Of a stretch of DNA of 64,000 bases, positions 11,216 through 54,609 are shown one piece after another. Source of the DNA: Mycobacteriales bacterium. GTDB lineage: Bacteria; Actinomycetota; Actinomycetes; Mycobacteriales; SCTD01. The position numbers and the translations under genes are program-made. The DNA is taken from NCBI GenBank assembly GCA_040902655.1, contig JBBDWV010000049.1, positions 20,926 to 84,925 of the forward strand. Reading direction: 5' to 3'. The notes below the pieces were generated by a model that was not told where the DNA came from, ran no database searches, and saw nothing but the letters and a program-made list of their open reading frames with translations. Within the stretch, counting starts at the first letter, position 1. Every line of letters begins with the position of its first letter.

Positions 11216-12622
11216 GTGACGAGCGCCGCCCCTGCACCCACGACGGTTGCCGGGCTGCGCGCCGCCGGCCATGTCCACAAGACGGTCAAGGCCGAGGTAC
11301 GCGACAACCTGCTCGCCCGGCTGTCCGCCGGCCTGACCGCCTTCCCCGGGATCCTCGGCTTCGACGAGACCGTCCTGCCGCAGGTCGAGCGCGCGTTGCT
11401 CGCCGGTCACGACCTGGTGCTGCTGGGCGAGCGCGGTCAGGGCAAGACCCGCCTCATCCGCACCCTGGTGGGGCTGCTCGACGAGTGGACGCCGGTGCTG
11501 GCCGGCTCCGAGCTGAACGAGCACCCGTACTCCCCGATCACCCCCGCCGGCCGCCGGGTGGTCGCGGAGCTCGGCGACCACACGCCGGTCGAGTGGCGGC
11601 ACCGCAGCGAGCGCTACGGCGAGAAGCTCGCCACCCCCGACACCTCCGTCGGAGACCTCATCGGCGACATCGACCCGATCAAGGTCGCCGAGGGCCGCAC
11701 GCTCGGTGACCCGGAGACCGTCCACTACGGGCTGGTCCCCCGCACCAACCGCGGCATCTTCAGCGTCAACGAGCTGCCCGACCTCGCCGAACGCATCCAG
11801 GTGGCGCTGCTGAACGTCATGGAGGAGCGCGACATCCAGGTCCGCGGCTACACCCTGCGGCTGCCGCTGGACCTGCTCCTGGTCGCCAGCGCGAACCCGG
11901 AGGACTACACCAACCGCGGCCGCATCATCACCCCGCTCAAGGACCGCTTCGGCGCGGAGGTGCGCACCCACTACCCGCTCGAGCTGGCCGACGAGGTCGG
12001 CCTGATCACCCAGGAGGCGCAGCTGAGCTGGCCCGGGACGAGCGTGACGGTTCCGGAACACCTGCTCGAGATCGTCGCCCGCTGGACCCGGCTGGTGCGC
12101 GAGTCGCCGCAGGTGGACCGGCGGTCCGGCGTCAGCGCCCGCTTCGCCGTGGCGGCCGCCGAGACCGTCGCCGCCTCCGCCGTCCGCCGCGCCGCCGTCA
12201 CCGGCGAACCGCAGGCGGTCGCGCGGGTCTGCGACCTGCCGTCCGTCGTGGCCGCCGCCCGCGGCAAGGTGGAGTTCGAGTCCGCCGAGGAAGGGCGCGA
12301 GATCGAGGTCCTCGCGCACCTGCTCCGCAGGGCCACCGCCGACACCTTCCGGGCCCGGCTCGCCGGGCTCGACCTGTCCGGGCTGCAGGCCCGCTTCGAG
12401 CAGGGCGGCACCGTCGAGACCGGCGATCTGGTGCCCGCCGCCGACCTGCTCGCCGGCCTCGGCCCCCTCCCGGGGCTGGCCGGGCTGCTCGCCCGGCTCG
12501 GGATCGAGCAGGAGTCGCCCGGGCTGGCCGCGGCAGCTGTCGAGCTCGCCCTGGAGGGACTGCACCTCAACCGCCGGCTGGCCAAGGACGAGGTCGGCGG
12601 CCGGACCGTCTACGGCGGCTGA
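11216..12622 (+). CDS. AAA+ ATPase, Mg-chelatase subunit I (ChlI/BchI)-like
   Basis: Walker A LLGERGQGKT, Walker B/sensor block GIFSVNELPDL..ALLNVMEERDIQVRG, then ASANPEDYTNRGRIITPLKDRF. Confidence 0.8.
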   Translation: MTSAAPAPTTVAGLRAAGHVHKTVKAEVRDNLLARLSAGLTAFPGILGFDETVLPQVERALLAGHDLVLLGERGQGKTRLIRTLVGLLDEWTPVLAGSELNEHPYSPITPAGRRVVAELGDHTPVEWRHRSERYGEKLATPDTSVGDLIGDIDPIKVAEGRTLGDPETVHYGLVPRTNRGIFSVNELPDLAERIQVALLNVMEERDIQVRGYTLRLPLDLLLVASANPEDYTNRGRIITPLKDRFGAEVRTHYPLELADEVGLITQEAQLSWPGTSVTVPEHLLEIVARWTRLVRESPQVDRRSGVSARFAVAAAETVAASAVRRAAVTGEPQAVARVCDLPSVVAAARGKVEFESAEEGREIEVLAHLLRRATADTFRARLAGLDLSGLQARFEQGGTVETGDLVPAADLLAGLGPLPGLAGLLARLGIEQESPGLAAAAVELALEGLHLNRRLAKDEVGGRTVYGG

Positions 12623-12646
12623 CGTGGCTGCCAGGAACGGCCGGGG

Positions 12647-14605
12647 ATGAGCCGCCCCTCCTTCCGCTACGGCCCCTGGTCCGGCGGGCGCGACCCGCTC
12701 GAGCCGCCGTACGACGTCGCTGCGGCGCTGGACGAGGTCGGCGAGGCGGTCCTGGACGGCGCCAGCGCCCGGCAGGCGTTGCGCGACCTGCTGCGCCGCG
12801 GTACCGACGGGCTGCGCGGCCTGGACGACCTGCGCCGCGGGGCCGCCAGACGGCAGCGCCAGGCCCGCTCCAAGGGTCAGCTCGACGGGACGCTGCAGGA
12901 GGTCCGCGAGCTGCTCGACCGGGCGCTCGGGGCCGAACGCCGGGAGCTGTTCCCCGATCCCTCCGACACCGCCCGGATGCGCGAACTCGAGCTCGACACG
13001 CTGCCGGACGACACCGCGCGGGCCGTGCAGGCTCTGCGGCCCTACGAGTGGCGCAGCGCCGAGGCGCGGGAGGCGTACGAGGCGATCGACGACCTGCTGC
13101 GCCGGGAGGTGCTGGACAGCCAGTTCCGCGGCATGAAGGCCGCGCTCGAGAACACCGATCCCGCCGCGCTGCAGGCCGTCAAGGACATGCTCGCCGACCT
13201 CAACGCGATGCTGGCGGCCGACGCGCGCGGGGAGCACACGCAGGAGCAGTTCGAGGCGTTCATGGCCGAGCACGGCGACTTCTTCCCTTCGGAGCCGGAG
13301 ACGCTGGAGGAGCTCGTCGACGACCTCGCCCGCCGGGCCGCCGCCCAGCAGCGGCTGATGGAATCCCTGACGCCGCAGCAGCGCCAGGAGCTGGCCGAGC
13401 TGATGCAGGGCGCGATGGACCTGGACCTGCAGGCGCAGATGTCCCAGCTCGGCGACGCGCTGCGCAGCGCGCGGCCAGACCTGCCCTGGGGTGGTCGCGA
13501 GCGGATGCGCGGCGAGCAGGGACTGGGCATGGGTGACGCCACCACGGCGCTCGAGGAGCTGGCCGATCTCGACGACCTCGCGGCGGCGCTCGGCCAGGAC
13601 TACCCCGGCGCGTCGCTCGACGACATCGACGAGGCCGCCGTGCAGCGTGCGCTGGGTCGCGGCGCCGTGGACGACCTCGCCGCGCTGCGCCGGATCGAGC
13701 GCGAACTACTCGAGCAGGGCTACCTCGTACGTGACAGCCGCGGCCGGCTCGAGCTGAGCCCGCGGGCGGTGCGCCGGCTCGGCGCGACCGCGCTGCGCAA
13801 GGTGTTCGCACGGCTCGAGGCGGCTGGGCGCGGCGGGCACGACGTGCACGACGCCGGCGCCGCCGGTGAGGTCACGGGCGCGAGCCGCGCCTGGCAGTTC
13901 GGCGACGAGCAGCCGCTCGACGTCGTCCGTACGGTACGCAACGCCGTCCTGCGCAGCGGTCCGGCCGGGTCCGGCATCCGGCTGAGCGTGGACGACTTCG
14001 AGGTGGTCGAGACCGAGCGGCGGACCCGCGCAGCGGTCGCGCTGCTGGTCGACCTGTCCTTCTCGATGGAGCTGCGGGGCGCCTGGGGCACGGCCAAGTC
14101 GACGGCGCTGGCGCTGCATGCACTGGTGACCACGAAGTACCCGCAGGACGCGATCTCGATCATCGGCTTCAGCGACTATGCGCAGATCCTCACGCCGGAG
14201 CGGCTGGCCGGTCTGGACGCCCAGCGGGTCCAGGGCACCAACCTCCAGCACGCCCTGGTCCTGGCCGGGCGGCACCTCGCTCAGCACCCTGACGCGGAGC
14301 CGGTGATCCTGGTCGTCACCGACGGGGAACCGACCGCCCACCTGACCCGCAGCGGCCACGCCGAGTTCTGCTGGCCGCCGCTGCCGGAGACGCTCGAGCT
14401 GACGATGGCCGAGGTCGAGCGGGTCACCCGGCGCGGCGCGACCATCAACGTCTTCCTGCTCGACGACGAGCCGCGGCTGGTGGACTTCGTGGAGCGCCTC
14501 GCCGCGCGCAACGGCGGGAGAGTGTTCGCGCCCGACCCGGCCCGGCTCGGCGAGTTCGTCGTGAGCGACTACCTGCGGGCGCGGCGCGGGCGCAGGACAC
14601 GCTAG
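12647..14605 (+). CDS. von Willebrand factor A (VWA) domain protein
   Basis: The C-terminal VWA domain has the MIDAS motif VDLSFSM, then GTN, then VTDGEPT. A long helical acidic N-terminal region precedes it. It follows the AAA+ gene by 24 nt. Confidence 0.8.
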   Translation: MSRPSFRYGPWSGGRDPLEPPYDVAAALDEVGEAVLDGASARQALRDLLRRGTDGLRGLDDLRRGAARRQRQARSKGQLDGTLQEVRELLDRALGAERRELFPDPSDTARMRELELDTLPDDTARAVQALRPYEWRSAEAREAYEAIDDLLRREVLDSQFRGMKAALENTDPAALQAVKDMLADLNAMLAADARGEHTQEQFEAFMAEHGDFFPSEPETLEELVDDLARRAAAQQRLMESLTPQQRQELAELMQGAMDLDLQAQMSQLGDALRSARPDLPWGGRERMRGEQGLGMGDATTALEELADLDDLAAALGQDYPGASLDDIDEAAVQRALGRGAVDDLAALRRIERELLEQGYLVRDSRGRLELSPRAVRRLGATALRKVFARLEAAGRGGHDVHDAGAAGEVTGASRAWQFGDEQPLDVVRTVRNAVLRSGPAGSGIRLSVDDFEVVETERRTRAAVALLVDLSFSMELRGAWGTAKSTALALHALVTTKYPQDAISIIGFSDYAQILTPERLAGLDAQRVQGTNLQHALVLAGRHLAQHPDAEPVILVVTDGEPTAHLTRSGHAEFCWPPLPETLELTMAEVERVTRRGATINVFLLDDEPRLVDFVERLAARNGGRVFAPDPARLGEFVVSDYLRARRGRRTR

Positions 14606-15203: not shown

Positions 15204-15260
15204 CGGCATCTCGCCGCCGGCCGGGCCGCCGGTGGTCGAACCGAGGCGGGTCGACCCGAG

Positions 15261-15854
15261 CTACACCGGGGCGACGCCGATGAGTCCGTTGCGGGTGACC
15301 AGTCCGGCAAGCGCCTGCTCGTCGAGTCCCTCGGTGCCGGCCGGCCGGCGTGGCAGCACCATGTGCCGTGTCTCCGCGGTGGCGTCCCAGACCGTCACCT
15401 CGACGTCGACCGGCAGGTCGTACCCGAACTCCCGCAGGACGCCACGCGGGTCGCGCACGACGCGTGAGCGGTAGCCCTCGCTCTTGTACCAGGTGGGCGA
15501 CGGACCGAGCAGGGCGATCGGGTAGCAGGAGCACAGCGTGCAGACGATGACGTTGTGCCGCGTCCCGGTGTTCTCGACGACCTCGAGCCGCTGCTCCTGC
15601 AGGCCGCCGCCCATCGAGAGCCCGAGCTCTGGGAGAGCGGCGTTCGCATCGACGAGCAGCCGCTCGCGGAACGCGCCGTCGACCCACGCGCGCGCGACGA
15701 CGCGCGCCCCGCTCGCCGGCGACGCCCTGCTCAGGAACGCCGTCAGCGCCCGGTCGAGCTCGACGGGATCGACCAGGCCTCGGCTCTCGAGGAGGGCCTC
15801 GACGTGTCGCACCCGGGCCGCAAGGGCCGCGTCGCCGGAGGAGTGCGCGCTCAT
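15261..15854 (-). CDS. nitrile hydratase alpha subunit homolog (cobalt-type; also matches thiocyanate hydrolase gamma)
   Basis: Metal-site motif VCTLCSCYP (Thr variant, cobalt class), then WYKSEGYRSRVVRDPRGVLREFG and ETRHMVLPRRPAGTEG. ATGA overlap with the upstream gene. Confidence 0.9.
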   Translation of the reverse strand: MSAHSSGDAALAARVRHVEALLESRGLVDPVELDRALTAFLSRASPASGARVVARAWVDGAFRERLLVDANAALPELGLSMGGGLQEQRLEVVENTGTRHNVIVCTLCSCYPIALLGPSPTWYKSEGYRSRVVRDPRGVLREFGYDLPVDVEVTVWDATAETRHMVLPRRPAGTEGLDEQALAGLVTRNGLIGVAPV

Positions 15855-16132
15855 CTGACGTCCTCCTCGAGGGCGGTGAGGTAGTCCTCCCAGAGGTCGA
15901 GCACGACGTCGTGCTCCCCCTCGCCGAACAGCTCGGCGGCGCGAAAGCGGACGGCGTAGGTGGTGCTCGGCGCGGGCTCCAGGCCACGCGCCCGGTCGTC
16001 GGCGAGCGGGTGCCGACCGTGCGATCCGAGCACGGTGCCGACCGCTCCACGGGCGTACCGCGGGAGGCGGGTGTGGTGTGCGGGGTCGGCATGTCCCGTG
16101 CGCACCCGGGTGCCGGCGAGAAGATCAGGCAC
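15851..16132 (-). CDS. nitrile hydratase beta subunit, C-terminal-half homolog (separate 93-aa polypeptide)
   Basis: GTRVRTGHADPAHHTRLPRYARGAVGTV...YAVRFRAAELFGEGEHDVVLDLWEDYL is the SH3-like C-terminal half of NHase beta. The GTG start overlaps the preceding gene by 8 nt. Confidence 0.8.
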   Translation of the reverse strand: MPDLLAGTRVRTGHADPAHHTRLPRYARGAVGTVLGSHGRHPLADDRARGLEPAPSTTYAVRFRAAELFGEGEHDVVLDLWEDYLTALEEDVR

Positions 16133-16406
16133 TGACCTCCTCCTGTGTCAGCACGCCCTTCTCGACGAGCAGCGTCTGGATCGCCAGGAACCACTTCTCG
16201 TAGTACGACGACGCGAGGTACCGGTCCGGCGAAATCCGCTCGACCGCATCGCGGAACTCGTCGAGGTTGTAGATCCCGGTGCCGACGAGCGCACGGTTCA
16301 TCGCGAACACGTGGGCCTCCCAGTCCGCGTAGAACGGCGGCTCGTCGAGCTCGGGCTGGGGGAGCCCGAAGCCCTCGAGTCCTCCGACGTCGTTGATACG
16401 TGCCAT
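16125..16406 (-). CDS. nitrile hydratase beta subunit, N-terminal-half homolog (separate 93-aa polypeptide)
   Basis: MARINDVGGLEGFG...PPFYADWEAHVFAMNRAL matches the NHase beta N-terminus (MDGIHDLGG...WE.R). GGGAGG precedes ATG 16406. Confidence 0.8.
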   Translation of the reverse strand: MARINDVGGLEGFGLPQPELDEPPFYADWEAHVFAMNRALVGTGIYNLDEFRDAVERISPDRYLASSYYEKWFLAIQTLLVEKGVLTQEEVSA

Positions 16407-16449
16407 CTGCGCGCCTCCCTCGGGGCATCCTGCCATGCGCGGAGGCGGG

Positions 16450-17168
<719 letters not shown>

Positions 17169-17172
<4 letters not shown>

Positions 17173-18155
17173 GTCTGGTCCTCCTGCCGTGCGGCGGTGG
17201 TCCGGCGGCGGGCGGACGCCCGCTTCTTCGGGCGCAGCCGTTCAGTGCCACCAGCAGGCTCGGCAGGAGGCGGCGCCGGCGGCTGCGCGAACTCCTGCGT
17301 GGGGGCGTCGTCGTGCGCGTGCACCGCCTGATCGGTGAGCCGGTCGAGCTCGGCGTCGTCGGCGCTCTCCTGCGTCTGTTCGAGCGCCTCGGGCGCCTCG
17401 CCACCGAGGTAGGCGGCGACGACCTCCGGGTGGGTCTGGATGACCGACGGCTTGCCCTCGGCCAGCAGCCGGCCGAAGTTCAGCACGTAGACGTGGTCGC
17501 AGACGCGCAGCACGAGCGGCACGTGGTGTTCGATGACGAGCATCGTCAGCTCGAACTCCCGGCGCAGCGTCAGCAGCCGATCGCCCAGCTCGTCTGACTC
17601 CTCGGGTCCCATGCCCGACGTCGGTTCGTCCAGCAGCAGGATGTCCGGGTCGGTCGCGAGCGCACAGCCCAGCTCGAGCAGCTTGAGCGTGCCGTAGGAC
17701 TGCCCACCGACCTGCATGTCGCGGATGTCGGCCAGCCCCAGCAGGTCCAGGATCGCCTCGGCCTTGGCCTGCAGTTGACGCTCGGTGCGTAGCGACCGGC
17801 CGCTACCGAGCAGGCCACTGGCCACGTCGTAGTCGACCTTGGCGTGCTGGGCGGTCTTGAGGTTCTCGAGCGCGGTGGCGCTCTTGACCATGCCAACGTT
17901 CTGGAACGTCCGGCCGAAGCCCATGGCGGCCTTGACGTGCGGCGGCGCGTTCGTGACGTCGCTACCGCGGTAGCTGACTCTGCCGGTGTTCGGCGTGTAG
18001 AAGCCGGTGATGCAGTTGAAGGCCGTCGTCTTGCCGGCGCCGTTCGGGCCGATCAGGCCGACGATCTCGTACTCGTTGACCTCGAGGTTGACGTCCTGGA
18101 GCGCCTGCAGGCCGCCGAAGCGGATCGACAGGTCGCGGACCTCAAGCACGGACAT
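17169..18155 (-). CDS. ABC transporter ATPase (LivG-type) with about 70-aa low-complexity C-terminal tail
   Basis: GPNGAGKTT, FQNVGMV, LLLDEPTSG, and the branched-chain C-terminal block PEVVAAYLG. An acidic/Pro-rich tail ending in a basic stretch (KKRASARRRTTAARQ) follows. Confidence 0.9.
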
Positions 18156-19275
18156 GGGAGCCCTCCGCCGTTCCGGGTCCGGATTCCTTGCCGGCGTGCA
18201 GCATGGTCTGCAACGAGAAGGGTTTGCCGGAGAGCCAGTCCAGCGCCCACTTGGTCTGCTGGGCCAGGCCGCCGGGGAACAGCACCAGGGTGATCAGCAG
18301 CAGGAACGCCCCGATGAACTGCGGCGCGAACTGCTGCAGGTTGCTGGTCCGGAAGATGAACTCCTCCACCGCGTGGACCGGAGTCTCCTCCAGGATGTAG
18401 CCGATCGCGGCGAAGAAGGACGAGCCCATGATGACGCCGATCCGGTTGCCCAGCCCGCCGACGACGGTCATCAGGACGAAGGTCAGCGCGAGGAAGAAAC
18501 CGAAGCCCGACGCGCTGACGATCTCGATGCGGAAGGCGAACAACGCGCCGGCGACGCCGGCGAGGGAGCCGGACAGCACGAAGGCGATGAGCTTGAACAG
18601 AGTGACATTGACGCCGAAGGCCTCCGCCACCCGCTCGTTCTCCTTCAGCGCGAGCAGCGCCCGGCCGGTCTTGCTCTTCATCAGCCGCCAGTCGAGGTAG
18701 ACCGCGGCGGCGAGGAACACCAGGCAGAACAGGTAGAAGTTGCCGTTGTCGAACAGGAACTCCGGCCGCTCGGCCGGCTGTCCGGCGCCGCCGTTGGTGA
18801 ACCTGGGCACCTCGAAGAGGGAGGCCTCCAGGGTCAGGCCGAAGACCAGGGTGATCAGCGCGAGGTAGAGGCCGGTGATGCGCAGGGCGACGATGCCGAT
18901 GAGGAAGGCGAACAGCCCACCCACCGCCGCCGCGATGACGAAGGTTGCGGCGAACGGCACGCCCTGCACGGTCAGGCTGTAGGCCGCGGCGAAGGCCCCC
19001 ACGCCGAAGAAGCCCTGGTGGCCGAGCGAGAGCTGTCCGGTGTAGCCGATGATGATGTTCAGGCTCAGCCCGACGATCGAGTAGATCGCCGCGTCGGCCG
19101 CGATCGGGGCGTAGACCTCGCTGTCCGGCACGAGCACGAGCAGCCAGTAGGCGAGCAACAGGTAGACGACCGCCCGCGGGACCCAGCGCAGCGGCCCGAA
19201 GTCCCTGCCGGCCGCGCCGTGCCGCGGCCTGACGTCCTCCACACCGGTCGGGCGTTGCGTGATCGTGGTCATCAT
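18142..19275 (-). CDS. ABC transporter permease (LivM-type)
   Basis: ORF trimmed to ATG 19275 (MMTTITQ), with an ATGA overlap onto the LivH-type stop. GYTGQLSLGHQGFFGVGAF motif. Confidence 0.9.
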   Translation of the reverse strand: MMTTITQRPTGVEDVRPRHGAAGRDFGPLRWVPRAVVYLLLAYWLLVLVPDSEVYAPIAADAAIYSIVGLSLNIIIGYTGQLSLGHQGFFGVGAFAAAYSLTVQGVPFAATFVIAAAVGGLFAFLIGIVALRITGLYLALITLVFGLTLEASLFEVPRFTNGGAGQPAERPEFLFDNGNFYLFCLVFLAAAVYLDWRLMKSKTGRALLALKENERVAEAFGVNVTLFKLIAFVLSGSLAGVAGALFAFRIEIVSASGFGFFLALTFVLMTVVGGLGNRIGVIMGSSFFAAIGYILEETPVHAVEEFIFRTSNLQQFAPQFIGAFLLLITLVLFPGGLAQQTKWALDWLSGKPFSLQTMLHAGKESGPGTAEGSHVRA

Positions 19276-20201
19276 GCCTGCTTGCCGAGCAGGCCGGCCG
19301 GCCTGACGAGGAGCACGGCCAGCAGCGTCACGAACAGCACCACACTGCCGGAGCCCGGCAGGATGTCCTTGCTGATGTTGGCCTGGGCCAGCGCCTCGAC
19401 CACGCCGATGACGACACCACCCAGGAACGCGCCCGGCAGGCTGGTGATCCCGCCGAACACCGCGGCCGTGAACGCCGGGATCAGCGCCAGACCGGTCAGC
19501 GCGCCGGGGGCGATGACGCCGTTGCTGCCCGAGAGCAGGATCCCGGCGACCCCACCCAGCAGACCGGCAATGCCCCACGTCAGCGCGGAGATGCGGCGGA
19601 CGCTGATGCCCACCAGCTGGGTGGCGGTCGGCTCCTGTGACACCGCGATGATGGCCGTGCCCGTCCGGGTGCGGCTGAAGAACAGCGCCGAGGCGGCCGC
19701 CAGCACCGTCAGGACGACGACGATGACGCCCTGCTGTCGGGTGATCCGCACCGCGCCGGTGTTGACGAGATCGCCGCCGACCAGTGGCGGGAAGCTGCCC
19801 GGCTCGGCCCCGTTGAGGAAGCCCTGGATCGCGATCAGCAGCAACGCCACGCCCGCGGTGGCCACGACCAGCGTGACCTTCGGGGCGTTGAACAGCGGCC
19901 GGACCACGAGGAACTCGGTGAGCAGTCCGATGCCGACGCCGACGAGCAGCCCGAACACCACGGCGGCCCCGAGTGGCATCTGCGGCAGGAAGCCGGTGCC
20001 GTTGACGGCGAACAGGGTGGCGAAGGCGGCGCTGGTGCCGAACTCCGCCTGGGCGAAGTTGAAGATCCGGTTGCTCTTGTAGAGCAGCACCAGACCCAGC
20101 CCCAGCAGCCCGTAGACCGCTCCCTGGATGGCCCCGGAGATGGCCGGGCCGACGACGGACAGCGCCTGTGGCTCGAGCGCCATCAGCACAGGGACACGCA
20201 C
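19272..20201 (-). CDS. ABC transporter permease (LivH-type)
   Basis: GAVYGLLGLGLVLLYKSNRIFNFAQAEFG is the typical LivH N-terminal block. An alternative ATG start lies at 20183. Confidence 0.9.
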   Translation of the reverse strand: MRVPVLMALEPQALSVVGPAISGAIQGAVYGLLGLGLVLLYKSNRIFNFAQAEFGTSAAFATLFAVNGTGFLPQMPLGAAVVFGLLVGVGIGLLTEFLVVRPLFNAPKVTLVVATAGVALLLIAIQGFLNGAEPGSFPPLVGGDLVNTGAVRITRQQGVIVVVLTVLAAASALFFSRTRTGTAIIAVSQEPTATQLVGISVRRISALTWGIAGLLGGVAGILLSGSNGVIAPGALTGLALIPAFTAAVFGGITSLPGAFLGGVVIGVVEALAQANISKDILPGSGSVVLFVTLLAVLLVRPAGLLGKQA

Positions 20202-20220
20202 CCCTCAGCAGTCGGGTGTG

Positions 20221-21681
20221 TCACTTGGCGTACGTCTTGAGCGTCTTGGTACGGCCCTGGTCGTTGCAGTTGCTCTGCAGCCCGAAGGCCGCGGTGCCAC
20301 CGAAGACCTGCCCGCGGTAGATCGCCGGGCTGAGGATGCCGCCCTTGACACCGCCCTGCCGGAGCGTGGCGATGAACTTCTCCCGGGTCAGCTGGCCGGG
20401 CACCTGGTTGAAGGCCTGCTCCAGCTGCTGCATCGCGCCGTAGATGCCGTACTCGATGTCGTCCTGGAAGCTCACGCCGGGTGCCCGCTGCGCCGCGGTG
20501 TCGAGGCCCGGCGAGGGGTGCAGGAAGAAGCCCTTGTACTGGTTGGCCGTGTTGGTACAGGCCAGCCGGCCGACCGACTGGATGCCGAAGGACGGGCCGA
20601 CACCGACGTAGACCGGCTGGTAGGTGGGGGTGTAGCCGATGCTCGTCACGCAGCTGATGAAGTACGACGGCTGGCCGAGGAAGTAGATGCGGGTGTAGGT
20701 GTTGCGCAGCTGGCCGGCCAGGGTCGAGCAGTTGGTCCCGGTCTTGGCCGTCAGGTAGACGTCGTTGCCCGAGGTGAACTTGCCGCTCTTGCCGTTGACG
20801 CCGGCCTTCTGCAGGGCGGACACGACGGACTCGCGGGCGTCGGCGAAGTTCGGCCCCTCGGTGATGACCACGGCCCAGCTGCCGTCCAGGAACTTGTTGT
20901 CACGGGCGAACTGCGGGATGAGTGCGCCCTGCTGCTTGTAGGTCAGCGAGGTGGCGAAGTAGTTCGGCAGCTTGCCCAGGCCGGACTCGGTGACGCCCGA
21001 GGACAGGTACGGCACGTTGCCGCGGCGCAGCACCTGACTCTGGGCGCAGGCCTGGATCTGGTCGGTGCCGGCGCCACCGACGATGAGGAACGAGTCACGG
21101 GCGGCGGCGTTGCAGGCGCGCAGCGCGTCGGGGGCGTTGTACTTGTCGTCCACCGCCTCGGCGATGACGGTGTAGCCGTTCTTCAGCTTGCGGCCGTTCC
21201 AGTACTTCGGGGTGCCGCTGCGGAAGGATTCCTGCGGCACGCCGGCGCCGGTGAGCGGCCCGTGCAGGGTGATCTTCACCGTCTTCCTGCCGGCGTCGAT
21301 TCCCGTCGTGGTGCCGGACTCGGCGGGCGCGGGGCCCGCGGCGGGGCGGTCCGTGCCGCCGGCAGCGGGGGCGTCGGCAGCGGGGGCGTCGGCAGCGGGG
21401 GCGTCGGTGCCGCCGGCAGCGGGCGCGTCCGGCCCCGCGGCGGCGGGGCCGTCGGTCGGTCCGTCAAGGGCCCCGGGGTCGCTGCCCGGGACCAGTGGGT
21501 CACCCGTCACCGGGTCCACTCCGCCGGCGCCGATCGGGTCGAGCCCGACCGCGCCAGCGCCGCCGGCGACGGCTGGGTTCTGGGCGAGCTGCTCCTTGAC
21601 CTCGGGCTTGAGGCCGCAGGCGGAGACGAAGGCGCTGGACAGCAGCACGAGGGCGAGCGTGCGGCGGTGCCGGACGTTCAT
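20221..21681 (-). CDS. lipoprotein substrate-binding protein of the Leu/Ile/Val/amide-binding (type I PBP) family with long Pro/Ala/Asp linker
   Basis: Lipobox LSSAFVSAC. About 110 aa of PAGD-rich linker, then a type I periplasmic-binding-fold-like domain. It is the first gene of the transporter cluster. Confidence 0.8.
   Translation of the reverse strand: MNVRHRRTLALVLLSSAFVSACGLKPEVKEQLAQNPAVAGGAGAVGLDPIGAGGVDPVTGDPLVPGSDPGALDGPTDGPAAAGPDAPAAGGTDAPAADAPAADAPAAGGTDRPAAGPAPAESGTTTGIDAGRKTVKITLHGPLTGAGVPQESFRSGTPKYWNGRKLKNGYTVIAEAVDDKYNAPDALRACNAAARDSFLIVGGAGTDQIQACAQSQVLRRGNVPYLSSGVTESGLGKLPNYFATSLTYKQQGALIPQFARDNKFLDGSWAVVITEGPNFADARESVVSALQKAGVNGKSGKFTSGNDVYLTAKTGTNCSTLAGQLRNTYTRIYFLGQPSYFISCVTSIGYTPTYQPVYVGVGPSFGIQSVGRLACTNTANQYKGFFLHPSPGLDTAAQRAPGVSFQDDIEYGIYGAMQQLEQAFNQVPGQLTREKFIATLRQGGVKGGILSPAIYRGQVFGGTAAFGLQSNCNDQGRTKTLKTYAK
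21361..21405. repeat. perfect 15-bp x3 tandem repeat (ggcagcgggggcgtc) inside the SBP linker
   Basis: Read directly from the sequence. It encodes DAPAA x3 on the minus strand. Degenerate copies flank it. Confidence 0.9.
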
Positions 21682-31610: not shown

Positions 31611-32399
31611 CTAGTCGTTGCCCTGGAGGTAGGACAGCAGGCGGAGGATGTTGAGGTAGAGGAAGACCAGTCCGACGATCAGGCCGAAGCCCACCCGCCA
31701 GGACTCCTTCTCGGCCACGCCCGTGGCGACCATCCGGTCGGCCTGGTCGAAGTCGAGCACGAAGGTGAGGGCGCCGAAGGTGATCAGGCCGAGGGTGAAC
31801 AGGATCGCGATCGGCCCGCCGGTGGTCAGACCCAGCGCGTCGCCGGCGCCGAAGGCGTTGGCCAGGATGTTGAGGAAGAAGACGGCCACCATGCCGACCA
31901 GGCCGAAGGTGACGACCTTGGCGAACTTCGGCGTCGCCCGGAGCTTGCCGCTCTTGTAGCCGAACAGCACCGCACCGAAGACGGCGGCTGTGCCGATGAC
32001 CGCCTGTACGACGATGCCGCGGTACTGGCCCTCGTAGCTGGCGCTGATGACGCCGAGGAACACGCCCTGTGCGCCGGCGTAGGCCATCACCAGGCCGGGG
32101 CTGACCGACTTCTTGAAGATGTTGACCATCGCGAGGGCGAAGCCGACGAGACCGGCGAGCAGCGCGAGGCCGATCGGCACCTGGAGGTACCACGACGCGG
32201 CACCGACGCCGACCACGATCGAGAGCAGGATGCCGGTCTTGACGATGACGTCGTCCATCGTCATGCGCTGCGGCGTGTCGTAGATCGCCGCGACGTCGTC
32301 GGGGGACGGGGCCGGCGTGTGGAAGCCGACACCCTGGGAAGCGGTGCGCAGCGGCTCGCTGCGCGCGAAGACGGGGTTACTGGACTCCATGCTGCGCAT
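31611..32399 (-). CDS. Bax inhibitor-1/YccA-family membrane protein
   Basis: ORF trimmed to ATG 32399 (MRSMESSNPVF). Seven hydrophobic helices. The ending FLYLNILRLLSYL is typical of the family. Confidence 0.8.
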   Translation of the reverse strand: MRSMESSNPVFARSEPLRTASQGVGFHTPAPSPDDVAAIYDTPQRMTMDDVIVKTGILLSIVVGVGAASWYLQVPIGLALLAGLVGFALAMVNIFKKSVSPGLVMAYAGAQGVFLGVISASYEGQYRGIVVQAVIGTAAVFGAVLFGYKSGKLRATPKFAKVVTFGLVGMVAVFFLNILANAFGAGDALGLTTGGPIAILFTLGLITFGALTFVLDFDQADRMVATGVAEKESWRVGFGLIVGLVFLYLNILRLLSYLQGND

Positions 32400-32499
32400 C
32401 TGCGTGCTCTCCTCTGCGCGACCCTCGGGCGGGGCCGTGCGCTGGGTACAACGTACGCGGTCCGGGTTCTGTGCCCGGCCCGAACGCAGCGGCTCGCGG

Positions 32500-32576
32500 T
32501 GCCCCCGGCGGGAGTCGAACCCGCAACTCAGCCGGTTTAAGCGGCTCGCCGCACTGCCAGATTGGGCTACGGGGGC
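32500..32576 (-). tRNA. tRNA with anticodon UAA (Leu codon UUA) but class-I architecture (5-nt variable loop)
   Basis: Hand fold of the minus strand: acceptor GCCCCCG/CGGGGGC, discriminator A. The D region GCCCAATCTGGCAGTGCGGC is 20 nt with a 3-bp stem. Anticodon arm AGCCG-CTTAAAC-CGGCT, variable GAGTT, T arm GCGGG-TTCGACT-CCCGC. No CCA is encoded. Confidence 0.75.
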
Positions 32577-32612
32577 GGCCACCTCACGGTACGTGCTGCA
32601 CGCCAGGGGGGC

Positions 32613-54538: not shown

Positions 54539-54609
54539 CTCCCGGGGGAGGAATCGAACCTCCGTTCAGGGATTCAAAGTCCCTTGTCCTGCCCCTAGAC
54601 GACCCGGGA
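54539..54609 (-). tRNA. tRNA-Gln (anticodon UUG)
   Basis: Hand fold: TCCCGGG-TC-GTCT-AGGGGCA-GGAC-A-AGGGA-CTTTGAA-TCCCT-GAAC-GGAGG-TTCGATT-CCTCC-CCCGGGA-G. 71 nt with all stems paired (one G-U). Confidence 0.9.

What the first reader, a model, noticed from the sequence alone, without database searches (positions are those of the whole stretch)
15261..16406. Three-polypeptide (split-beta) cobalt-type nitrile hydratase / thiocyanate hydrolase homolog
- Seen in sequence: the beta subunit is encoded as two separate 93-aa ORFs. The N-half (MARINDVGG..WEAHVFAM) stops at 16125. The C-half (HHTRLPRYARG..LWEDYL) starts at GTG 16132, which is an 8-nt overlap. The alpha subunit carries VCTLCSCYP.
- Established knowledge: a split beta is the architecture of thiocyanate hydrolase (ScnB/ScnA/ScnC, the same gene order) and of toyocamycin nitrile hydratase ToyJKL. 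ToyJKL also hydrates the 7-cyano-7-deazapurine preQ0. Thr in CTLCSC marks the Co class.
- Inference: the small sizes (93/93/197 aa) look closer to ToyKL/J than to the larger SCNase subunits. There is no deazapurine biosynthesis context here, so the substrate is open.
Basis: partly seen in the sequence, partly recalled or inferred. Interest (0 to 1): 0.6.

Follow-up and report, generated by a model that had tools for sequence, protein, structure and literature searches.

The report
Three-gene split-beta cobalt nitrile hydratase
This is a real, intact three-gene cobalt nitrile hydratase whose beta subunit is naturally encoded as two small proteins, an arrangement already described in Streptomyces and shared by hundreds of soil actinobacteria, so it is a solid but ordinary find whose natural substrate is still unknown.

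Summary
On the minus strand lie beta-N (16406..16125, 93 aa), beta-C (GTG 16132..15851, 93 aa, 8-nt overlap) and alpha (15854..15261, 197 aa, VCTLCSCYP).

- **Not a sequencing error.** All 80 related genome loci fetched, of 371 species genomes with a relative, have the same beta-N, beta-C, alpha order. Beta-N ends in TGA in 80/80. A start codon (GTG/ATG/TTG) sits at the same 8-nt overlap in 66/80.
- **Catalytic residues are conserved.** These are the alpha Cys105/Cys108/Ser109/Cys110 claw, beta-N Arg52/Tyr68/Tyr69/Trp72 and beta-C Arg22 (PtNHase beta-Arg157).
- **Not thiocyanate hydrolase.** Alpha scores 167 bits against a 291-bit cut-off, and the beta halves match SCNase only marginally.
- **No deazapurine context.** There is also no amidase, cobalt transporter or activator gene.
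- **Closest known enzymes.** Gene order, subunit masses (10.5/10.3/21.2 kDa) and the missing activator match the characterised Streptomyces canus AnhD-AnhE-AnhA enzyme. Architecture and masses match toyocamycin nitrile hydratase (ToyJKL).
- **The ABC-transporter adjacency is incidental.** Two syntenic relatives have the same Liv-type operon and flanking genes but no cassette. The cassette is therefore a variable insert in a housekeeping region.

Verdict: a new member of a known kind, of low to moderate interest, with the substrate open.

The parts
16125..16406 (-). beta-N gene (AnhD-like): N-terminal domain of NHase beta, 93 aa plus the TGA stop. It carries Leu48, Phe51, Arg52, Glu56, Tyr68, Tyr69 and Trp72.
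   Evidence: PF21006 scores E 7e-31. It aligns to residues 3-92 of 3QXE_B at E 6.8e-22. 1091 homologues were found, and the best 120 are 93-137 aa (116 of them under 112 aa) with PF21006 only. Arg52 and Tyr68/69 are at least 95% conserved in the family.
15851..16132 (-). beta-C gene (AnhE-like): C-terminal SH3-like domain of NHase beta, 93 aa plus stop, starting at GTG. It carries His20-Thr21-Arg22, where Arg22 equals PtNHase beta-Arg157.
   Evidence: PF02211 scores E 1.1e-21. It aligns to residues 139-225 of 1IRE_B and 133-217 of 3QXE_B. The nearest 50%-identity clusters are all 89-131 aa.
15261..15854 (-). alpha gene (AnhA/ToyJ-like): catalytic Co-type NHase alpha subunit, 197 aa plus stop.
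   Evidence: PF02979 scores E 2.5e-75. TIGR01323 nitrile_alph scores 244.9 bits against a cut-off of 249.85. The best PDB matches are Co-type alphas.
15519..15545 (-). Metal-binding claw V104-C105-T106-L107-C108-S109-C110-Y111-P112. Thr106 and Tyr111 are the cobalt-type signature.
   Evidence: Read directly from the sequence. The motif is conserved (reference residue in at least 95% of sequences at every position) in 72 family alpha subunits.
16125..16132 (-). 8-nt start/stop overlap GTGCCTGA that couples translation of beta-N and beta-C. A GGAGGAGG Shine-Dalgarno sequence lies just upstream, at about 16136..16143.
   Evidence: The beta-N stop is TGA in 80/80 loci. The triplet at this position is GTG in 48, ATG in 15 and TTG in 3 loci, 66/80 in all.
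15851..15854 (-). ATGA overlap of the beta-C stop and the alpha start (translational coupling).
   Evidence: Read directly from the sequence.
15204..16449 (.). Interval between the livF stop and the stop of the convergent 184-aa gene. Here it holds the whole cassette. In syntenic relatives it is only about 85-95 nt.
   Evidence: L083 and L084 have livF (86-90% identity) immediately followed by the convergent homologue (66-67%), VWA and AAA genes, with no NHase.
16450..21681 (-). Context only: a Liv-type (HAAT) ABC transporter operon (lipoprotein SBP, livH, livM, livG, livF) that ends 43 nt upstream of beta-N. It is a likely source of read-through transcription and is not a conserved partner.
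   Evidence: Pfam hits. SBP relatives carry PF13458. No terminator or promoter was predicted in the gap. None of the 80 NHase loci has this operon adjacent.

Best explanation
The three genes encode a cobalt-type nitrile hydratase built from three polypeptides, most likely assembled as an (alpha, beta-N, beta-C)2 heterohexamer, that hydrates a nitrile (R-CN) to the amide.

**Catalysis.** The alpha subunit binds Co(III) through Cys105, Cys108, Ser109 and Cys110, with Cys108 and Cys110 oxidised after translation. Beta-N Arg52 and beta-C Arg22 hydrogen-bond those oxidised cysteines. Beta-N Tyr68/Tyr69 and the Leu48/Phe51/Trp72 pocket line the substrate site.

**The split.** The two beta halves are the two domains of a canonical beta subunit without its roughly 40-residue linker.

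**Expression.** The genes are made in step by translational coupling, through an 8-nt and a 4-nt start/stop overlap, each start preceded by a Shine-Dalgarno sequence.

**Maturation.** No activator gene exists. By analogy with the S. canus enzyme, free beta-N probably also acts as the cobalt and self-subunit-swapping chaperone.

**Genomic setting.** In this Mycobacteriales genome the cassette is a variable insert at the end of a Liv-type ABC operon, from which it is probably read through. The physiological nitrile is unknown.

**Shown versus inferred.** Shown here are the gene structure, domain identity, residue conservation, family-wide conservation of the split, absence of an activator and the cassette's presence/absence polymorphism. 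Inferred are the stoichiometry, cobalt content, cysteine oxidation, the chaperone role of beta-N, co-transcription and enzymatic activity.
For: - **Domains and motifs:**
- **Residue conservation** in 57-72 family members.
- **Conserved split:** 80/80 loci have beta-N, beta-C and alpha in that order on one strand. Beta-N stops with TGA in 80/80, and an NTG start sits at the same 8-nt overlap in 66/80.
- **Family size:** 371 species genomes encode a relative. There are 1091 beta-N homologues, and the best 120 are short.
- **No activator:** no second beta-N-like ORF lies within +-10 kb in any locus or anywhere in the 64-kb window. The same HMM detects 5/5 annotated accessory proteins as a positive control.
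- **Subunit masses:** 10.54/10.25/21.17 kDa, against ScNHase 10.41/11.35/21.33 kDa and TNHase 10/11.4/21.2 kDa.
- **Precedent:** ScNHase has the order anhD-anhE-anhA and no activator, and AnhD acts as the chaperone (PMC7329996).
- **Matching residue numbering:** ScNHase AnhD-Glu56 and AnhE-His21 are functionally important (PMC13243292). The window has beta-N Glu56 and beta-C His20.
Against: - No experiment was done here, so activity, metal content and oligomeric state are unverified.
- Alpha scores just under the NCBIfam equivalog cut-off (244.9 vs 249.85 bits).
- No amidase, aldoxime dehydratase or cobalt transporter lies nearby to indicate a pathway.
- I could not obtain the ToyJKL or AnhDEA sequences, so direct identity to the characterised enzymes is unmeasured.
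Confidence: 0.85

Rival explanations
1. It is a thiocyanate hydrolase (SCNase), the other three-subunit member of the NHase superfamily, converting SCN- to carbonyl sulfide and ammonia.
For: It has three subunits with a beta split at the same domain boundary. Weak matches exist to SCNase beta (2DD4_B, E 2.6e-3) and SCNase alpha (2DD4_A, E 5.6e-4). Alpha hits TIGR03887 at 167 bits.
Against: - TIGR03887 needs 291 bits, whereas nitrile_alph scores 245.
- Alpha matches Co-NHase alphas at E 1e-62 but SCNase gamma only at 1e-35.
- The beta halves match NHase beta at E 1e-22 and 1e-14.
- The subunits lack the N-terminal extensions of SCNase: 93/93/197 aa against 157/126/243 residues.
- No sulfur-oxidation context is present.
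Confidence: 0.03
2. It is an orthologue of toyocamycin nitrile hydratase (ToyJKL), acting on a 7-cyano-7-deazapurine such as toyocamycin or preQ0.
For: It has the same three-polypeptide architecture and nearly the same subunit masses. ScNHase and TNHase are reported to branch together (PMC13243292).
Against: - No toy/que biosynthetic genes (GTP cyclohydrolase I, QueD, QueE, QueC or salvage-type genes) occur in the 64-kb window.
- They are also not among the recurrent neighbours of the 80 related loci.
- By its gene names, ToyJKL appears to run alpha first (my inference, not checked). The order here is beta-N, beta-C, alpha, as in S. canus.
- The cassette occurs in hundreds of genomes, in varied contexts.
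Confidence: 0.07
3. The split is an artefact or a decay product: a frameshifted, pseudogenised two-subunit NHase, or one restored to a fused beta by programmed +1 frameshifting at the overlap.
For: Beta-C lies in the +1 frame relative to beta-N, and an SD-like GGAGGAGG precedes the stop. This superficially resembles the prfB frameshift site.
Against: - The junction is conserved across 80 species-level genomes.
- The position 8 nt from the stop is always a valid start codon where the overlap exists (GTG 48, ATG 15, TTG 3; never CTG). That fits reinitiation, not slippage.
- Other loci separate the two ORFs by -20, -17, -4 or +24 nt and are still split.
- The canonical linker (beta residues about 93-132) is missing rather than frameshifted.
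- ScNHase and TNHase yield separate polypeptides of about 10 and 11 kDa.
Confidence: 0.02
4. The first ORF is only an NhlE/P14K-type activator (maturation chaperone) and not a structural subunit. The enzyme proper would then be alpha plus beta-C.
For: Beta-N hits the accessory-protein model TIGR03889 (37.2 bits, E 2.2e-9). The beta-N family HMM cross-detects real accessory proteins. AnhD of ScNHase does have chaperone activity.
Against: - Beta-N scores 107-108 bits on the NHase beta N-domain models and is below the accessory cut-off of 46 bits.
- It retains the catalytic second-shell residues Arg52, Tyr68, Tyr69 and Trp72 at PtNHase numbering, at least 95% conserved in the family.
- In ScNHase all three subunits are in the active complex, and AnhD2A alone is inactive.
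Confidence: 0.03

Closest known systems
Streptomyces canus CGMCC 13662 nitrile hydratase ScNHase (AnhD-AnhE-AnhA; Guo et al. 2019, 2020, PMC7329996)
   Same: - The gene order is the same: beta-N, beta-C, alpha.
- Masses are similar: three polypeptides of about 10.4/11.4/21.3 kDa, against 10.5/10.3/21.2 kDa here.
- It is Co-type and has no activator gene.
- Glu56 in the N-half and a His just before the HTR arginine in the C-half are present at the same or adjacent numbering.
   Different: - It comes from a different organism group (a Mycobacteriales MAG, not Streptomyces).
- No Streptomyces genome is among the 80 closest loci, so the relationship is probably below about 63% identity for beta-N.
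- The known ScNHase substrates (acetamiprid, thiacloprid, sulfoxaflor) are xenobiotics and say little about this enzyme's substrate.
Toyocamycin nitrile hydratase ToyJKL of Streptomyces rimosus (McCarty and Bandarian 2008; Nelp et al. 2014)
   Same: It is an (alpha-beta-gamma)2 heterohexamer with subunits of 21.2, 10 and 11.4 kDa. The two small subunits are homologous to the halves of NHase beta. It is Co-type and independent of an activator.
   Different: ToyJKL sits in the toy deazapurine cluster and converts toyocamycin to sangivamycin. No such context exists here. The gene order differs (alpha first, by the gene names).
Canonical two-subunit Co-type NHases (Pseudonocardia thermophila 1IRE, Pseudomonas putida 3QXE, Rhodococcus rhodochrous J1 L-/H-NHase)
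   Same: The alpha fold and metal claw match (E 1e-53 to 1e-62). Beta residues Leu48, Phe51, Arg52, Tyr68, Tyr69, Trp72 and Arg157 are all present at the equivalent positions.
   Different: - The canonical beta is one chain of 219-233 aa with a roughly 40-residue linker, which is absent here.
- Canonical clusters carry an accessory protein, and often an amidase and the CbtA/CbtB cobalt transporter. None of these is present here.
- Alpha identity is only 43-51% to the six proteobacterial examples.
Thiocyanate hydrolase ScnA/B/C of Thiobacillus thioparus (2DD4)
   Same: It is a three-subunit member of the NHase superfamily with a beta split at the same domain boundary. It is a cobalt enzyme.
   Different: - Its subunits are much larger (157/126/243 residues).
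- Sequence matches are only marginal (E 2.6e-3 and 5.6e-4).
- Alpha fails the SCNase gamma model (167 bits against a 291-bit cut-off).
- SCNase has an activator gene.

Membership tests
Co-type nitrile hydratase (NHase superfamily) | Alpha subunit with the C-(T/S)-L-C-S-C metal claw. Thr and a following Tyr (VCTLCSCY) mark the cobalt class. | tested here: met
   VCTLCSCYP lies at alpha residues 104-112. It is conserved (at least 95% at every position) in 72 family alphas. That Thr and Tyr mark the Co class is established knowledge, restated in PMC7329996.
Co-type nitrile hydratase (NHase superfamily) | Beta N- and C-domains that supply the two arginines which hydrogen-bond the oxidised cysteines (PtNHase beta-Arg52 and beta-Arg157), plus beta-Tyr68. 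| tested here: met
   Beta-N Arg52 and Tyr68 and beta-C Arg22 were identified by alignment to 3QXE_B and 1IRE_B. All are at least 95% conserved in the family.
Co-type nitrile hydratase (NHase superfamily) | Non-corrin Co(III), Cys-sulfinic and Cys-sulfenic modification, and nitrile-to-amide activity. | not testable with these tools
   This needs protein expression, metal analysis, mass spectrometry and enzyme assays.
Co-type nitrile hydratase (NHase superfamily) | NCBIfam equivalog thresholds for nitrile_alph (249.85 bits) and nitrile_beta (152.2 bits). | tested here: inconclusive
   Alpha scores 244.9 bits, 5 bits short. The beta halves score 108.3 and 74.7 bits, each covering half of the model (1-92 and 141-224 of 226). 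Together they would pass.
Three-subunit (split-beta) NHase of the ScNHase / TNHase kind | Beta encoded as two separate polypeptides of about 10-11 kDa, corresponding to the N and C domains, plus an alpha of about 21 kDa. | tested here: met
   ORFs, domains, masses.
Three-subunit (split-beta) NHase of the ScNHase / TNHase kind | No activator (accessory) gene. | tested here: met
   No second beta-N-like ORF occurs in the 64-kb window or in the 80 loci within +-10 kb. The positive control detected 5/5 accessory proteins.
Three-subunit (split-beta) NHase of the ScNHase / TNHase kind | Gene order anhD (beta-N), anhE (beta-C), anhA (alpha), as in S. canus. | tested here: met
   The order is seen in the window and in 80/80 related loci. 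The published order is given.
Three-subunit (split-beta) NHase of the ScNHase / TNHase kind | Sequence orthology or clade membership with AnhD/E/A or ToyJ/K/L. | not tested
   The reference sequences are not in any accessible collection and I did not reconstruct them from memory. Only indirect support exists: matching residue numbering for Glu56 and His20/21.
Toyocamycin nitrile hydratase (ToyJKL) specifically | Location in a deazapurine (toy/que) biosynthetic cluster. | tested here: not met
   The window genes are housekeeping: MetG, KsgA, IspE, GlmU, PrsA, Pth, Mfd, enolase, Ppx, CBS, CGS and Mca.
Thiocyanate hydrolase (SCNase) | Gamma subunit meeting the TIGR03887 equivalog threshold (291.45 bits). 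| tested here: not met
   It scores 167.1 bits. The PDB SCNase gamma match is E 1e-35, against 1e-62 for NHase alpha.
Thiocyanate hydrolase (SCNase) | Beta (157-residue) and alpha (126-residue) subunits with N-terminal extensions, and close similarity to ScnB/ScnA. | tested here: not met
   The subunits here are 93 and 93 aa. Matches to 2DD4_B and 2DD4_A are only E 2.6e-3 and 5.6e-4.

The most novel reading that the evidence does not exclude
The beta-N/beta-C/alpha cassette may be a self-contained, activator-free and horizontally mobile NHase module. On this reading the split is kept by selection in hundreds of Actinomycetota and Dormibacterota species because free beta-N doubles as the cobalt-insertion and subunit-swapping chaperone. 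That would explain the invariant TGA, the 8-nt reinitiation overlap and the universal lack of an accessory gene. It would also make the split the evolutionary link between NHase beta subunits and NhlE/P14K-type activators. A second, weaker possibility is that in this genome the cassette has been captured by a Liv-type ABC importer operon to process an imported nitrile.
Probability: 0.3. Interest if true: 0.45.

Novelty: new member of a known kind. Interest (0 to 1): 0.25.

Why it matters
**For this window:** it settles the annotation. The three short ORFs form one intact enzyme and not a broken gene. Public pipelines label such halves 'hypothetical' or 'SH3-like domain-containing protein'.

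**More generally:** the comparative data show that the three-subunit, activator-free NHase studied in two Streptomyces strains belongs to a large, tightly conserved cassette family. At least 371 species genomes encode a relative. That is useful for biocatalyst mining, because these are compact enzymes that mature without an accessory protein. It also bears on how NHase activators relate to beta subunits.

**Limits:** it does not open a new kind of biology, and the natural substrate remains unknown.

Tried and rejected
- **Conserved neighbours as a clue to substrate.** I clustered all ORFs within +-10 kb of 80 loci. Nothing recurs beyond the three genes. The commonest neighbours are an acyl-CoA synthetase-like gene (15 loci, mixed orientation), an SDR, kinases and IlvD. 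No lead came of it.
- **Functional link to the adjacent Liv-type ABC transporter.** Rejected. None of the 80 loci has it, and syntenic relatives have the transporter without the cassette.
- **Signs of the insertion mechanism.** No flanking direct or inverted repeats stand out from background. There is no significant hairpin after alpha (z = -1.09). No promoter or terminator was predicted near the cassette. Cassette GC3 is 0.90, against 0.90-0.96 for eight neighbouring genes checked, which is not diagnostic.
- **Riboswitch or other RNA element.** Rfam finds only two tRNAs, far away.
- **Split-type NHases on plasmids.** All 70 PLSDB hits match at under 60% identity. The 30 listed are proteobacterial and, where annotated, lie under canonical nthB genes. 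None looks split.
- **Taxon names for the nearest beta-C clusters.** The look-up returned mostly unnamed metagenomic proteins.
- **NJ tree of the beta-C domain.** It gives a core clade of 14 split clusters and 1 of other length class around the window protein. Resolution on 85 residues is poor, and many scattered short hits may be gene fragments. I use it only as weak support.
- **The 486-aa lipoprotein.** It has no Pfam, NCBIfam or PDB hit of its own, but relatives carry PF13458, so it is a divergent Liv-type binding protein.
- **NHLP/RiPP leader hits on alpha.** These reflect the known homology of those leaders to NHase alpha. They are irrelevant for a full-length alpha with an intact metal site.
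Full report
**1. The observation**

- Beta-N runs from ATG 16406 to the TGA at 16127..16125 (93 aa, MARINDVGG...QEEVSA).
- Beta-C starts at GTG 16132, so GTGCCTGA is shared by the two genes. It ends at 15851 (93 aa).
- Alpha starts at ATG 15854, overlapping the beta-C stop as ATGA, and ends at 15261 (197 aa).
- Each start has a Shine-Dalgarno sequence: GGGAGG at 16419..16414, GGAGGAGG within the QEEV codons of beta-N, and GAGGAGG before alpha.
- Pfam assigns NHase_beta_N (E 7e-31), NHase_beta_C (1.1e-21) and NHase_alpha (2.5e-75).
- The upstream ATG at 16436 adds ten residues that are not conserved in homologues, so 16406 is the start.

**2. The split is real**

Beta-N has 1091 homologues in the protein collection. 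The best 120 are 93-137 aa, 116 of them under 112 aa, and carry only the N-domain.

A scan of one genome per species found 371 genomes with a relative. I fetched the best 80 loci. They come from Geodermatophilaceae, Mycobacteriales, Streptosporangiaceae, Umezawaea, Lentzea, Kibdelosporangium, Actinomycetospora and Nocardioidaceae, plus several Dormibacterota.
- All 80 have beta-N, beta-C and alpha in that order on one strand.
- Beta-N ends in TGA in 80/80.
- In 66/80 the triplet 8 nt from the end of that stop is GTG (48), ATG (15) or TTG (3), and never CTG. An SD-like motif lies within 20 nt upstream in 57 of those 66.
- The remaining loci use other spacings (-20, -17, -4, +24 nt) but are still split. 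A few long-read MAGs carry obvious frameshift errors.

A start codon kept at a synonymous site of the upstream gene points to termination-reinitiation coupling. It does not fit an assembly error, a pseudogene or programmed frameshifting.

The two halves align to residues 3-92 and 133-217 of the 219-aa P. putida beta (3QXE_B), and to 139-225 of the P. thermophila beta. The canonical linker of about 40 residues is therefore absent rather than disrupted.

Among 50%-identity cluster representatives, the nearest relatives of beta-C are all 89-131 aa. Fused betas of 206-233 aa begin at about 53% identity. A rough NJ tree gives a core clade of 14 split clusters and 1 of other length class around the window protein.

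**3. What it is**

The alpha subunit is a cobalt-type NHase alpha.
- It carries VCTLCSCYP, with Cys105, Cys108, Ser109 and Cys110.
- Its best solved relatives are Co-type alphas, 4OB1 and 3QXE, at E 1e-62 to 1e-59.
- NCBIfam nitrile_alph scores 244.9 bits, just under the 249.85 equivalog cut-off. The thiocyanate-hydrolase gamma model scores 167 against a cut-off of 291.

Beta-N keeps Leu48, Phe51, Arg52, Glu56, Tyr68, Tyr69 and Trp72 at P. thermophila numbering. Beta-C keeps His20-Thr21-Arg22, where Arg22 equals beta-Arg157. In family alignments of 57-72 members, the metal motif, Arg52, Tyr68/69 and Arg22 are at least 95% conserved.

SCNase subunits match only marginally (E 2.6e-3 and 5.6e-4) and are much larger. 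The calculated masses here are 10.54, 10.25 and 21.17 kDa.

**4. No activator and no pathway partners**

An HMM of the beta-N family, run without filters on all six-frame ORFs, finds no second beta-N-like ORF. This holds for the 64-kb window and for all 80 loci within +-10 kb. As a positive control, the same HMM detects all five annotated accessory proteins from canonical plasmid clusters.

Those canonical clusters read amidase, nthA, nthB, accessory protein, CbtB, CbtA. None of these partners is present here.

The window is a housekeeping block:
- MetG, TatD, RpfB-like, KsgA, IspE, ABC-F, GlmU, PrsA, L25, Pth and Mfd;
- MazG, enolase, Ppx, cystathionine beta-synthase and gamma-synthase;
- a caspase-like peptidase, the Liv operon, a VWA/AAA pair, a FIST protein and Mca.

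There are no deazapurine genes, and Rfam finds no riboswitch. Clustering of neighbours across the 80 loci shows no recurrent partner.

**5. The ABC-transporter adjacency is incidental**

The cassette begins 43 nt after livF of a Liv-type operon. That operon's 486-aa lipoprotein is 100% identical to a protein of an NCBI Mycobacteriales MAG (WD794_13490), which identifies the source.

Two related contigs, L083 and L084, carry the same gene order: CBS, CGS, peptidase C14, a 370-aa protein, SBP, livHMGF, a convergent gene of about 160 aa, VWA and AAA. Identities are 86-90% for LivF, 66-67% for the convergent gene and 72-85% for VWA and AAA. In both, livF abuts the convergent gene directly (about 85-95 nt) and there is no NHase.

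The cassette is therefore a presence/absence polymorphism at this site. Because it lies in different contexts in all 80 other genomes, it behaves as a floating accessory module.

No repeats, terminator or compositional break mark its edges. Gain is more parsimonious than two losses, but this is not proven. Co-transcription with the liv operon is likely, given the 43-nt gap and the lack of a predicted terminator, but it remains an inference.

**6. Mechanism**

*Shown here:* three translationally coupled genes encode the alpha subunit and the two beta domains, with every residue known to build the Co-NHase active site.

*Inferred from the characterised relatives:*
- an (alpha, beta-N, beta-C)2 heterohexamer, as for TNHase and ScNHase;
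- Co(III) in the oxidised cysteine claw;
- hydration of a nitrile to its amide;
- maturation without an activator. In ScNHase, AnhD (the beta-N homologue) forms AnhD2A and acts as metallochaperone and self-subunit-swapping chaperone.

The sub-threshold hit of beta-N to the accessory-protein model (37 bits) and the cross-detection fit that dual role.

The substrate cannot be inferred. The pocket residues are those of broad-range Co-NHases.

**7. Comparison with what is known**

The architecture is already described.
- ToyJKL is a three-subunit enzyme that converts toyocamycin to sangivamycin.
- S. canus ScNHase has the same gene order, no activator and similar subunit masses, and AnhD-Glu56 and AnhE-His21 are important.
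- A 2026 review places ScNHase on a branch with the S. rimosus enzyme.

I could not obtain those sequences, so direct clade membership is untested.

**8. Verdict**

The finding is a new member of a known kind.

The modest added value is the family-level picture. The split, its TGA stop and its 8-nt coupling overlap are conserved across the 80 related species loci examined, of 371 species genomes that encode a relative. The cassette never comes with an activator, and here it is a variable insert in a core region. Interest is 0.25.

Noticed in passing
window 20221-21681 (-): This 486-aa lipoprotein (signal peptide ending ...VSAC|G) heads the Liv-type ABC operon. It has no Pfam, NCBIfam or PDB hit of its own. 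Relatives at 44-75% identity carry PF13458 (Peripla_BP_6), so it is a divergent substrate-binding protein with an unknown ligand. It is 100% identical to NCBI MAG Mycobacteriales protein WD794_13490, which identifies the source of the window.
   Followed up: partly
window 17169-18155 (-): The LivG-type ATPase carries a C-terminal tail of roughly 70 residues that is low-complexity, proline-rich and basic (...PPAPPPAEPAGGTERLRPKKRASARRRTTAARQEDQT), beyond the usual domain of about 255 aa. Relatives in L083 also have long LivG proteins (362 aa).
   Followed up: no
P0124 and P0134 (hits): A 5409-aa protein has 14 separate stretches, and a 583-aa protein has 7, that resemble the NHase beta C-terminal (SH3-like) domain (residues 20-57 of beta-C, 36% identity). 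These are repeat proteins built from an NHase-beta-C-like module.
   Followed up: no
window 32500-32576 (-) and 54539-54609 (-): Two tRNA genes were found. The first overlaps the 5' end of the long ORF 31611..32582 (Bax-inhibitor-like, PF12811), so that gene's true start must lie further downstream.
   Followed up: no
window 11216-14605 (+), L083 14810-18191, L084 16044-20034: A conserved pair of genes encodes an AAA/Mg-chelatase-like ATPase and a VWA protein with Mb0984_helical and Rv0959_3rd domains (homologues of M. tuberculosis Rv0958/Rv0959). It is followed by a FIST-domain protein, and function is undetermined. In L084 the VWA gene appears broken into several ORFs.
   Followed up: no
RefSeq WP_053732522.1 (P0121, Nocardia sp. 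NRRL S-836); JGI names: Public annotation calls split beta-C proteins 'SH3-like domain-containing protein' or 'hypothetical protein', and many beta-N proteins 'hypothetical protein'. Three-subunit NHases are therefore under-recognised in genome annotations.
   Followed up: partly
L003, L011, L020, L036, L054, L065: Several MAG loci, four of them from the MFD series, show alpha or beta-C broken into two frames. These are probably assembly indels rather than biology, and I excluded them from the junction statistics where they interfered.
   Followed up: partly
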